In this document: positions 11,751 through 12,009 of the stretch, one piece after another | How the letters are laid out: each line of letters opens with the position of its first letter | Numbering within the stretch: the stretch's first letter is position 1 | NCBI GenBank assembly: GCA_038893995.1 | Contig: JAWAQK010000054.1 | Location: 1-15,293, forward strand | DNA: 15,293 nt | DNA from: Candidatus Thorarchaeota archaeon | GTDB taxonomy: Archaea; Asgardarchaeota; Thorarchaeia; Thorarchaeales; Thorarchaeaceae | Direction: 5' to 3' | Translations under genes and position numbers: made by a program | The notes under the pieces: model-generated | The model's database searches: none | What the model was told of the DNA's origin: nothing | Seen by the model: the letters and a program-made list of their open reading frames with translations, nothing else

Positions 11751-11870
11751 ACACGATGTATGGATGATCCCATCTTATGTCGTTTGAGGCCTGGCCAGGA
11801 GCAGTGAGAATGTTCACCTCTCAGACACATGCACCTCCCGATGATATTATTAGTCAACTGTCAGGGACCC

Positions 11871-11981
11871 AGGGTGCACACAGTCCGACAATCGCCTGGC
11901 GTCATAGTGAGTGAGGAGTGACCTGAAAGGTCTTCAATGAGATCACTTTTCATACGCCATGGTACAGGCTGTGTGCACCCT
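11871..11981 (+). ncRNA. Putative structured RNA or cis-regulatory leader (about 111 nt) upstream of the AIR-synthase-like gene
   Basis: 13-bp perfect terminal stem AGGGTGCACACAG/CTGTGTGCACCCT, with nested TGGCGT/ACGCCA and GTGAGGAGTGA/TCACTTTTCAT helices. TATTATTA at 11845-11852. Confidence 0.55.
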
Positions 11982-12009
11982 CTGACCGAGATGACATGAG
12001 GAAAGGGCG

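What the first reader, a model, noticed from the sequence alone, without database searches (positions are those of the whole stretch)
11860..11986. Highly structured 110-125 nt RNA in front of the AIR-synthase/HypE-like gene
Seen: nested helices 11871-11885/11967-11981 (13 Watson-Crick pairs, then U-G and C-G), 11897-11902/11954-11959 and 11911-11921/11943-11953 (three G-U, + strand only). There is a competing apical GACCT-GAA-AGGTC hairpin, an optional outer GTCAG/CTGAC helix, and several UGA/CUGA motifs of the kind found in K-turns. A TATA-like TATTATTA lies about 26 bp upstream and the CDS starts 28 nt downstream. Inference: an unannotated ncRNA (guide-like, with an internal pocket) or riboswitch-like leader controlling an enzyme of unknown substrate. 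It shares the paired-end, TATA-proximal design of the 7.3-7.8 kb elements.
Basis: partly seen in the sequence, partly recalled or inferred. Interest (0 to 1): 0.7.

Follow-up and report, generated by a model that had tools for sequence, protein, structure and literature searches.

The report
Clamped H/ACA-type RNA in mRNA leader
The structured RNA in front of the AIR-synthase-like gene is real and conserved, and it is built like the guide RNAs that direct pseudouridine formation in archaea (box H/ACA), but it is closed by an extra outer stem, sits in the 5' leader of a messenger RNA, and no target RNA could be found.

Summary
Window 11874-11981 (+) holds a real ~108-nt RNA. Compensatory base changes support 20 of its 28 modelled pairs. 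It occurs exactly once per genome in 74 of 86 genomes of its family (Asgard archaea, according to an earlier scan note) and in the one sister-family genome. Wherever the flanks were inspected (21 family genomes plus that one) it lies about 17-33 nt upstream of the same AIR-synthase/PurM-superfamily gene.

Its core meets the published structural rules for a classic archaeal box H/ACA hairpin:
- an 8-bp lower stem
- an 8/7-nt internal loop with near-invariant strands
- a 5-6-bp upper stem with one bulge
- a GA / C-NAU-GA kink-turn hairpin
- an invariant ACA directly after the lower stem, 14-16 nt from the top of the pocket

A 13-15-bp outer stem then clamps the 5' end to the sequence right after ACA. 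A second H/ACA hairpin in the same genome (contig C59, best match in 23S helix 69) has the same outer clamp. Cbf5, Nop10, Gar1 and L7Ae are all encoded.

No rRNA, tRNA or genome-wide target scored above chance, and no RNA-seq run was available. It is not a MITE, and I found no support for a riboswitch.

The scan has already noted H/ACA RNAs with extra framing helices in other Asgard genomes.

The parts
11838..11855 (+). Promoter-like BRE/TATA motif (CCGATGATATTATTAGTC; family consensus TCGATTAGRTTATTAGC)
   Evidence: It is conserved in most of the 21 aligned homologues, and its TTATTA end lies a constant 21-22 nt before the first conserved base of the outer stem. The motif is kept in genus g13, where the RNA has decayed but the gene remains. 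The promoter function is inferred.
11871..11886 (+). Outer clamp stem P1, 5' strand (conserved core from 11874; predicted transcription start about 11874)
   Evidence: It pairs with 11967-11981. Of the 11 modelled pairs, 9 show compensatory changes and 95% of cells are paired. The terminal GCGCAC/GUGCGC is almost invariant.
11887..11893 (+). 5' linker between P1 and the lower stem (GACAAUC)
   Evidence: Its length and sequence vary among homologues, apart from a frequent leading GA.
11894..11901 (+). Lower stem H1, 5' strand
   Evidence: It forms 8 pairs with 11955-11963. Six of the pairs show compensatory changes and 92% of cells are paired.
11902..11909 (+). 5' pocket strand UCAUAGUG (candidate 5' guide)
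   Evidence: CAUAGUG is identical in 43 of 44 distinct homologues and in the sister-family copy.
11910..11915 (+). Upper stem H2, 5' strand
   Evidence: It pairs with 11942-11947. The variable positions covary (U-A/C-G, G-C/A-U, A-U/C-G). One bulged or mismatched nucleotide shifts position among homologues.
11916..11941 (+). Kink-turn hairpin: G11916-A11917, closing G11918-C11935, apical stem GACC/GGUC 11920-11932, bulge AAU 11936-11938, G11939-A11940, extra G11941
   Evidence: GAG and C-N-AUGA are invariant, while the apical stem covaries and its loop varies. The layout matches the Rfam models of Pyrobaculum H/ACA-like sRNAs 208 and 204, at sub-threshold scores, and the K-turn of the C59 H/ACA hairpin.
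11942..11947 (+). Upper stem H2, 3' strand
   Evidence: See the entry for the H2 5' strand.
11948..11954 (+). 3' pocket strand UUUCAUA (candidate 3' guide)
   Evidence: UUUUCAU is invariant across the family. The sister family has UCUCAU, a U-to-C change that would still pair with a target G.
11955..11963 (+). Lower stem H1, 3' strand (U11960 bulged)
11964..11966 (+). ACA box
   Evidence: It is invariant in all 44 distinct homologues, including the sister family. It follows H1 directly and precedes the P1 3' strand directly.
11967..11981 (+). Outer clamp stem P1, 3' strand; its last three bases correspond to the family's ACC/ACU tail
11998..12001 (+). Shine-Dalgarno-like GAGG, 8 nt before the TTG start
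   Evidence: Purine-rich GGAG/GAGG/GGUG lies at the same place in homologues, and no T-rich terminator separates the RNA from the CDS.
12010..13020 (+). AIR-synthase/PurM-superfamily gene (336 aa), substrate unknown
   Evidence: Pfam AIRS plus AIRS_C. It scores below the cut-offs of HypE, ThiL and SelD. The closest solved structures are HypE. Orthologues are widespread in the phylum.

Best explanation
The element is a box H/ACA-type RNA, that is, a hairpin built to assemble with Cbf5, Nop10, Gar1 and L7Ae. It is transcribed from a conserved promoter as the first ~108 nt of the AIR-synthase-like mRNA.

Shown:
- The fold: a lower stem, a two-stranded pocket with near-invariant strands, an upper stem, a kink-turn hairpin, and an ACA directly after the lower stem.
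- An additional 13-15-bp outer stem that ties the 5' end to the bases right after ACA.
- Conservation as a single copy across one archaeal order.

Inferred:
- L7Ae binds the kink-turn, and the Cbf5 PUA domain binds ACA plus the lower stem.
- The pocket strands pair with sequences either side of a target uridine, which is then converted to pseudouridine.
- The outer stem acts as a clamp or end-protection. It may also mark where the small RNA is cut away from the mRNA, which keeps a short leader with its ribosome-binding site.

The target is unknown. The U/C difference between the two families in the 3' pocket strand predicts a target of the form AUGAGA-U-N-CACUAUG, with mismatches tolerated.
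For: Structure:
- 20 of 28 pairs carry compensatory changes.
- None of 500 shuffles reaches the observed value.
- Slid controls give only 3-7 such pairs.

Distribution:
- 74 of 86 family genomes and 15 of 16 genera have it, exactly one copy each.
- The sister-family copy was found 40 nt upstream of the orthologous gene.

Geometry against the published rules (PMC2377435, read):
- H1 of at least 7 bp: 8 bp here.
- Loop strands of 5-11 nt: 8 and 7 nt here.
- H2 of 5-6 bp with at most one bulge: met.
- ACA flanking H1: invariant.
- 14-15 nt from ACA to the target U: 15 in most homologues, 16 in the window, 14 in the sister family.

Kink-turn layout:
- It aligns to the Rfam Pyrobaculum H/ACA-box families RF02806 and RF02802. 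These are the only hits of a relevant RNA class, though sub-threshold.

Second example:
- A hairpin in the same genome (C59:11724-11822, minus strand) meets the same rules.
- Its best rRNA match is the 23S helix 69 loop.
- It has the same ACA-G-outer-stem clamp, with compensatory changes in 5 other genera.

Proteins:
- Cbf5, Nop10, Gar1 and L7Ae are all encoded.

Not coding:
- A 1-nt indel in the lower stem among homologues rules out a conserved small ORF.
Against: No target was found.
- Bipartite scans of the genome's own 16S and 23S give a best score equal to the median of shuffled guides (p about 0.43).
- Scans of 28 tRNAs and of the whole genome are also at chance.
- Single-arm duplex energies are no better than those of shuffled guides.
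- A family-wide search for the predicted target hit only unrelated coding sequences.
- Sites that score in both families (LSU U1558, SSU U1043) are weak.

The two pocket strands can partly pair with each other (A-U, U-A, G-U, G-U, A-U), which is unusual for an open guide pocket.

ACA is internal and directly abuts a helix, rather than lying in a free 3' tail.

Rfam hits are far below the gathering scores.

There is no expression or protein-binding evidence: no RNA run was listed.

The position in front of one gene was conserved wherever flanks were inspected in both families, which also fits a cis-regulatory role.
Confidence: 0.6

Rival explanations
1. The element is a cis-regulatory leader of the AIR-synthase-like mRNA. 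A protein (L7Ae on the kink-turn, possibly Cbf5 on ACA, or the enzyme itself) or a small ligand binds the conserved internal loop and alters translation or stability of the downstream gene. No modification of another RNA is involved.
For: - The RNA lies immediately upstream of the same gene wherever flanks were inspected: 21 family genomes plus the one sister-family genome.
- No T-rich terminator separates them, and a Shine-Dalgarno site follows within about 10-20 nt.
- No trans target was found.
- The pocket strands are invariant and partly self-complementary.
- An earlier scan note (e1-5620265, unchecked here) describes a kink-turn leader acting as a translation switch elsewhere in this genome.
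- S. islandicus sR666 shows that Cbf5/L7Ae-bound hairpins without guide regions exist (PMC11077068).
Against: - The kink-turn lies about 60 nt upstream of the ribosome-binding site and does not overlap it.
- No conserved alternative pairing involves the SD: P1 stays formed with probability about 0.9, and SD pairing is intermediate and not conserved in partner.
- Orthologues in 20 other Asgard genomes (11 other families) have no such RNA. Genus g13 kept the promoter and the gene while the RNA decayed.
- There is no Rfam riboswitch match.
- The full H/ACA geometry, including the ACA-to-pocket distance, would be unnecessary for a simple operator.
- The same clamp design occurs on a separate H/ACA RNA on contig C59 whose homologues are followed by T-rich stretches.
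Confidence: 0.22
2. The element is a structured small RNA of another, undescribed class that merely resembles an H/ACA hairpin. Examples would be an L7Ae-bound scaffold or an RNA chaperone for some other process.
For: No Rfam family reaches its threshold. There is no target. ACA is internal and followed by a helix.
Against: Six independent structural rules of the H/ACA class are met at once. The same build is seen in the C59 RNA, whose best rRNA match is a classic pseudouridylation site.
Confidence: 0.12
3. The element is a chance hairpin, a mobile-element remnant (MITE), or a small protein-coding ORF.
For: A long inverted repeat and an ATG-initiated 20-codon frame are present inside the window sequence.
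Against: - It is single-copy in its own genome and in 73 other family genomes.
- Compensatory changes occur in three helices.
- A frame-breaking 1-nt indel occurs among homologues.
- The fold z-score is -4.5.
Confidence: 0.02

Closest known systems
Classic single-hairpin archaeal box H/ACA sRNAs (Pyrococcus Pab91/Pf9, Pab21; Sulfolobus islandicus sR115, sR435; PMC2377435, PMC11077068)
   Same: They share a lower stem of 7 bp or more, a two-stranded pseudouridylation pocket, a 5-6-bp upper stem with at most one bulge, a kink-turn above it, an ACA directly 3' of the lower stem, and 14-16 nt from ACA to the top of the pocket.
   Different: - Here ACA is not in a free 3' tail. It is followed at once by the 3' strand of a 13-15-bp outer stem that pairs with the RNA's 5' end.
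- The RNA is the leader of an mRNA rather than a stand-alone gene with its own terminator.
- No rRNA or tRNA target is detectable.
Pyrobaculum H/ACA-like sRNAs (Rfam RF02806 PyrR208, RF02802 PyrR204)
   Same: The kink-turn hairpin has the same layout: stem, GA-G, short apical stem-loop, C-N-AUGA, one extra nucleotide, stem (alignments).
   Different: [quoted passage not shown] Scores are 15.7 and 18.9 bits against gathering scores of 64 and 71, so it is not a member of either family.
The H/ACA hairpin on contig C59 of the same genome
   Same: It has the same overall build, including ACA-G followed directly by an outer clamp stem, a 6-9-nt 5' linker and an NCC-type tail. Its outer stem also covaries.
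   Different: - It has different pocket sequences, with an 11-bp match to the 23S helix 69 loop.
- Its homologues are followed by T-rich stretches, so it is probably a stand-alone gene.
- It is far less conserved in sequence across the family: 5 of 24 other family genomes by BLAST.
l7ae 5'-UTR K-turn translational operator and S. islandicus sR666 (a Cbf5/L7Ae-bound hairpin without guide regions; PMC11077068)
   Same: Each is a kink-turn element in or near an mRNA leader, or a Cbf5-associated RNA with no evident guide function.
   Different: Those elements lack a lower stem, pocket and ACA module. The known operator sits at the ribosome-binding site of the regulator's own gene, whereas here the K-turn is about 60 nt upstream of the SD of an unrelated enzyme gene.
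Guide RNAs carried within mRNA transcripts: eukaryotic snoRNA host genes and UTR-embedded archaeal C/D box sRNAs (from my own knowledge, not checked in the paper library)
   Same: A modification-guide-type RNA shares a transcript and a promoter with a protein-coding gene.
   Different: Eukaryotic snoRNAs are mostly intronic. The archaeal cases known to me are C/D box RNAs. Processing of this leader has not been shown.

Membership tests
Archaeal box H/ACA sRNA (classic hairpin) | Lower stem H1 of at least 7 bp | tested here: met
   It has 8 pairs (11894-11901 / 11955-11963). Six show compensatory changes and 92% of cells are paired. The rule is from PMC2377435.
Archaeal box H/ACA sRNA (classic hairpin) | Internal loop (pocket) with 5-11 nt on each strand | tested here: met
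   The 5' strand has 8 nt (11902-11909) and the 3' strand 7 nt (11948-11954). Both are near-invariant in 44 distinct homologues.
Archaeal box H/ACA sRNA (classic hairpin) | Upper stem H2 of 5-6 bp between pocket and K-turn, with at most one bulged nucleotide | tested here: met
   There are 5 Watson-Crick pairs plus one non-canonical pair, with one bulge whose position shifts among homologues. The sister-family copy has 6 Watson-Crick pairs plus U.U and no bulge.
Archaeal box H/ACA sRNA (classic hairpin) | K-turn or K-loop in the apical part (L7Ae site) | tested here: met
   At the sequence level there is an invariant GA on the 5' strand, a closing G-C pair, a 3-nt bulge N-A-U, and an invariant GA on the 3' strand. 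The layout matches the Rfam Pyrobaculum H/ACA models. L7Ae binding itself cannot be tested here.
Archaeal box H/ACA sRNA (classic hairpin) | ACA (ANA) trinucleotide flanking H1 on the 3' side | tested here: met
   ACA at 11964-11966 is invariant in all homologues, including the sister family.
Archaeal box H/ACA sRNA (classic hairpin) | 14-15 nt between ACA and the target position at the top of the pocket | tested here: met
   The distance is 15 nt in most homologues, 16 in the window (one bulged U in H1), and 14 in the sister family. This counts A11910-U11947 as the closing pair of H2.
Archaeal box H/ACA sRNA (classic hairpin) | Pocket strands complementary to sequences flanking a uridine in rRNA or tRNA | tested here: not met
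   The best rRNA score equals the median for shuffled guides. tRNAs, the whole genome and the family-wide search are also at chance. PMC11077068 warns that real targets can have only 8-11 bp with bulges, so a target is not excluded.
Archaeal box H/ACA sRNA (classic hairpin) | ACA lies in a single-stranded 3' tail or hinge | tested here: inconclusive
   ACA is single-stranded, but the outer-stem 3' strand follows it directly. The same arrangement occurs in the C59 H/ACA hairpin. Internal ANA boxes are known in multi-hairpin archaeal guides (PMC2377435).
Archaeal box H/ACA sRNA (classic hairpin) | Partner proteins Cbf5, Nop10, Gar1 and L7Ae are present and bind the RNA | not testable with these tools
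   All four genes are present in the genome above the family cut-offs. Binding needs EMSA or RIP.
Riboswitch / metabolite-sensing leader | The element travels with the regulated gene family, and its expression platform overlaps the SD or a terminator | tested here: not met
   It is absent upstream of 20 orthologues in 11 other families and has decayed in genus g13. There is no conserved SD-sequestering alternative and no Rfam riboswitch hit.
L7Ae K-turn translational operator | K-turn at or overlapping the ribosome-binding site | tested here: not met
   The K-turn at 11916-11940 is about 60 nt upstream of the SD at 11998-12001.
MITE / dispersed repeat | Multiple dispersed copies with target-site duplications | tested here: not met
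   There is one copy in the own genome and one per genome in 73 other family genomes.

The most novel reading that the evidence does not exclude
Host-gene reading: in this archaeal order (Asgard, per an earlier scan note) an H/ACA RNA is made from the 5' leader of a protein-coding mRNA. The outer stem, together with its conserved A/C-C-C/U tail, acts as a processing handle that resembles a tRNA acceptor end (5'-GCG...CGC-A-CC). Through it the ~108-nt RNA is cut from the mRNA and its ends are protected. This would be a prokaryotic counterpart of snoRNA host genes in the lineage closest to eukaryotes. The orphan pocket might then act on a non-rRNA substrate, or serve as a chaperone as snR30/U17 does in eukaryotes.
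Probability: 0.15. Interest if true: 0.75.

Novelty: new variant of a known kind. Interest (0 to 1): 0.5.

Why it matters
H/ACA guide RNAs are hard to find in archaea and are barely catalogued for Asgard archaea, the closest known relatives of eukaryotes. This RNA adds three features to the classic hairpin:
- an outer clamp stem that begins right after the ACA box, also seen on a second H/ACA RNA of the same genome
- a fixed position as the leader of an mRNA
- strictly conserved pocket strands with no detectable rRNA or tRNA target

If the RNA is cut out of the mRNA, it would be a simple prokaryotic analogue of a snoRNA host gene. If it stays attached, it would be a Cbf5/L7Ae-bound mRNA leader. 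Either outcome would widen what H/ACA particles are known to do in archaea.

The covariance model built here also gives a ready way to annotate this RNA in about 75 genomes.

Tried and rejected
- **Rfam.** No match at gathering thresholds over the whole window. At E up to 10 there were only sub-threshold hits: Pyrobaculum H/ACA families, plus Cyano-1, Yfr1 and miRNA models that I regard as noise.
- **tRNA/tmRNA.** None in the window.
- **MITE.** Rejected, because the element is single-copy.
- **Small ORF inside the RNA.** Rejected, because of a frame-breaking indel among homologues.
- **Target searches, all at chance level:**
  - bipartite scans of 16S and 23S
  - 28 tRNAs with flanks
  - the whole genome on both strands; every top hit examined lies inside a long ORF
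  - single-arm duplex energies over the rRNA loci, including spacers
  - the predicted target pattern across 86 family genomes: 41 hits against 19 for the reversed control, with all 30 inspected hits in unrelated coding sequences whose codons explain the excess
  - a joint scan using the sister family's guide and rRNAs
- **Wider distribution.** No match outside the family in 125 other genomes of the phylum with strict filters. No match upstream of 20 orthologues with filters off.
- **Bulge-helix-bulge motif.** None is visible in the outer stem.
- **Other members of the class.** A generic descriptor for clamp-stem H/ACA hairpins was not specific (4 real against 3 control hits), so I could not count other members. 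Two other structured RNAs noted earlier in this genome (C32, C24) are not of this build.
- **Expression.** No RNA holder was listed among public runs. Only DNA runs of hot-spring metagenomes hold the stretch, so I did not lay reads.
- **SD accessibility.** Folding gave no clear result.

Full report
**Observation**

The intergenic region lies between a threonine-synthase-like gene (10590-11750, minus strand) and an AIR-synthase/PurM-superfamily gene (12010-13020, plus strand).
- The plus strand of 11860-11990 folds to -56.6 kcal/mol, with z = -4.5, and none of 200 dinucleotide shuffles folds as well.
- The minus strand is weaker, z = -2.9.
- Rfam has no match at gathering thresholds, and there is no tRNA.

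**Is it real?**

The 131-nt stretch is single-copy in its own genome. It has 69-80% identical counterparts in about 20 genomes of the same family. An earlier scan note on this window calls the lineage a family of Asgard archaea. I did not verify the taxonomy, but the ESCRT-III gene in the window is consistent with it.

An alignment of 21 homologues shows blocks of invariant sequence separated by stems that vary through compensatory changes.
- RNAalifold predicts 30 pairs, 17 of them with compensatory changes.
- For the structure I wrote down (28 pairs), 20 pairs carry changes on both sides and 89% of cells are paired.
- None of 500 column shuffles reaches the observed values, and sliding the 3' partners by 1-3 columns drops the count to 3-7 pairs.

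A covariance model built from this alignment finds exactly one copy in 74 of 86 genomes of the family, covering 15 of 16 genera, at 77-112 bits. With filters off it also finds a 42-bit copy in the only genome of the sister family, again about 40 nt upstream of the orthologous gene. The element is therefore a genuine, vertically inherited RNA. It is not a mobile repeat and not a chance hairpin.

**Anatomy (window coordinates)**

- A promoter-like motif at 11838-11855 (family consensus TCGATTAGRTTATTAGC) ends a constant 21-22 nt before the first conserved base, G11874. This places the inferred transcription start at the 5' end of the outer stem.
- The outer stem P1 pairs 11871/74-11886 with 11967-11981.
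- A variable 7-nt linker follows.
- The lower stem H1 pairs 11894-11901 with 11955-11963 (8 bp, U11960 bulged).
- The pocket strands are UCAUAGUG (11902-11909) and UUUCAUA (11948-11954).
- The upper stem H2 pairs 11910-11915 with 11942-11947.
- The kink-turn hairpin spans 11916-11941. It comprises G-A on the 5' strand, a closing G11918-C11935 pair, an apical GACC/GGUC stem, a 3-nt bulge AAU, and G11939-A11940 on the 3' strand.
- ACA lies at 11964-11966. It comes directly after H1 and directly before the P1 3' strand.

Among 44 distinct homologues the invariant or near-invariant positions are the two pocket strands, GAG, C-N-AUGA, ACA and the terminal GCGCAC/GUGCGC-ACC of P1. The stems and the apical loop vary.

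A 1-nt indel in H1 among homologues excludes a conserved small ORF.

**What it works like**

The core matches the structural rules derived experimentally for Pyrococcus H/ACA guides (PMC2377435):

| Rule | Here |
|---|---|
| H1 of at least 7 bp | 8 bp |
| Pocket strands of 5-11 nt | 8 and 7 nt |
| H2 of 5-6 bp with at most one bulge | met |
| A K-turn or K-loop above H2 | present |
| ACA flanking H1 | invariant |
| 14-15 nt from ACA to the target position | 15 in most homologues, 16 in the window, 14 in the sister family |

Further points in favour:
- The only Rfam hits of a relevant RNA class are two Pyrobaculum H/ACA-box families: RF02806 at 15.7 bits for the window and RF02802 at 18.9 bits for another homologue. 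Both align through the kink-turn hairpin, including the extra nucleotide after AUGA. Both are far below threshold, so this is a resemblance of layout and not membership.
- The genome encodes Cbf5, Nop10, Gar1 and two L7Ae-family proteins.

**A second example in the same genome**

A descriptor written from the published rules picked up a hairpin on contig C59 (11724-11822, minus strand). That search gave 3 real hits against 1 in reversed-sequence controls.
- The hairpin has a perfect 8-bp H1, 8/6-nt pockets, a 6-bp H2, a GA / C-GGU-GA K-turn, and ACA 15 nt from the pocket.
- Its best rRNA match is 11 bp (one mismatch) around LSU U2043 in CUAAC-U-A-UGAGUCU. I read this as the helix 69 loop, a classic pseudouridylation site. 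The shuffle p is only about 0.13.
- This RNA also has a 10-bp outer stem that begins right after ACA-G, a 6-nt 5' linker, and a CCC/ACC tail.
- Five homologues in other genera keep that stem through compensatory changes and are followed by T-rich stretches.

The outer clamp is therefore seen on two H/ACA-type RNAs of this lineage and is not peculiar to the window RNA. Earlier scan notes on other Asgard genomes (e1-5448669, e1-5561521) also mention H/ACA RNAs framed by extra helices. I did not check those notes.

**What does not fit**

I could not find a target.
- Bipartite scans of the genome's own 16S and 23S give a best score equal to the median of shuffled guides.
- Scans of 28 tRNAs and of the whole genome are at chance. 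The top genomic hits I examined lie inside long ORFs.
- Single-arm duplex energies are no better than those of shuffled guides.
- The sister family's 3' pocket strand reads UCUCAU instead of UUUCAU, which predicts a G in the target and a site like AUGAGA-U-N-CACUAUG. That pattern occurs in 34 of 86 family genomes, but all 30 inspected hits lie in unrelated coding sequences.
- A joint scan with the sister family's guide and rRNAs leaves only weak sites, LSU U1558 and SSU U1043.

The S. islandicus study shows that real targets may pair over only 8-11 bp with bulges, and that Cbf5/L7Ae-bound hairpins without guide function exist (PMC11077068). A missing prediction therefore lowers the claim 'pseudouridine guide for rRNA' more than the claim 'H/ACA-type RNP RNA'.

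**Relation to the gene**

- No T-rich terminator follows P1.
- A Shine-Dalgarno-like site and the start codon follow within 17-33 nt in the homologues where the start could be placed. The RNA is therefore the 5' leader of the mRNA.
- The gene is a PurM-superfamily enzyme. It scores below the cut-offs for HypE, ThiL and SelD, and it is nearest to HypE among solved structures.
- Orthologues occur in 113 of 151 sampled genomes of the phylum. The RNA was not found upstream of 20 of them from 11 other families, even with filters off, nor anywhere in 125 non-family genomes with strict filters.
- In genus g13 (three genomes, 96-99% complete) the promoter motif and the gene are kept, but the ~110-nt leader has lost ACA, the pocket strands and conservation.
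- P1 is predicted to stay formed. SD pairing is intermediate, with no conserved partner.

These facts argue against a riboswitch or an obligatory regulator of this enzyme family. They favour a lineage-specific RNA that uses the gene's promoter. The position was conserved wherever I inspected the flanks in both families, so a cis role remains a live alternative.

**Verdict**

| Reading | Probability |
|---|---|
| Box H/ACA-type RNA with an added outer clamp stem, embedded as an mRNA leader, target unknown | about 0.6 |
| Protein-operated cis-regulatory leader | about 0.2 |
| Other RNA class | about 0.1 |

It is a new variant of a known kind. Expression, processing and protein binding are untested, because no RNA run holding this sequence was listed.

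Noticed in passing
G000 contig C59:11724-11822, minus strand (L165:125-223:-): This is a second, unannotated classic H/ACA hairpin with the same outer clamp stem directly after ACA-G. Its best rRNA match is 11 bp around LSU U2043 in the helix 69 loop. Homologues in 5 other genera keep the clamp through compensatory changes and are followed by T-rich stretches.
   Followed up: partly
L077:2494-2640 (-), L078 and L079 equivalents (genus g13): In one genus of the family the leader of the AIR-synthase-like gene keeps the promoter motif and its ~110-nt length. 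It has lost the ACA box, the pocket strands and most conservation, so it looks like a natural decay of the RNA.
   Followed up: partly
window 11979-11984 and the equivalent positions of homologues; C59 family likewise: Both clamp-stem RNA families end the outer stem with a conserved A/C-C-C/U tail (5'-GCG...CGC-ACC), reminiscent of a tRNA acceptor end with its discriminator and CC. Its meaning is unknown.
   Followed up: no
L138 (G025:C23:99368-103215): The 23S rRNA gene of the sister-family genome matches the Rfam model in two pieces, and about 880 extra bases fall within model positions 1423-2973. This may be an rRNA intron or insertion.
   Followed up: no
G000 contig C32, about 3995-4120 (+): A ~125-nt nested hairpin carries a C/D-like K-turn (CCU-CAU-GAUGC ... 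CUGA-AGG) and a long GC-rich internal hairpin. It has no ACA or pocket, so it is not of the H/ACA build. An earlier scan note also flagged it.
   Followed up: partly
L141 (G000:C15:46963-47586): The Cbf5 gene runs into the end of its contig: only profile positions 6-211 of 322 are assembled.
   Followed up: no
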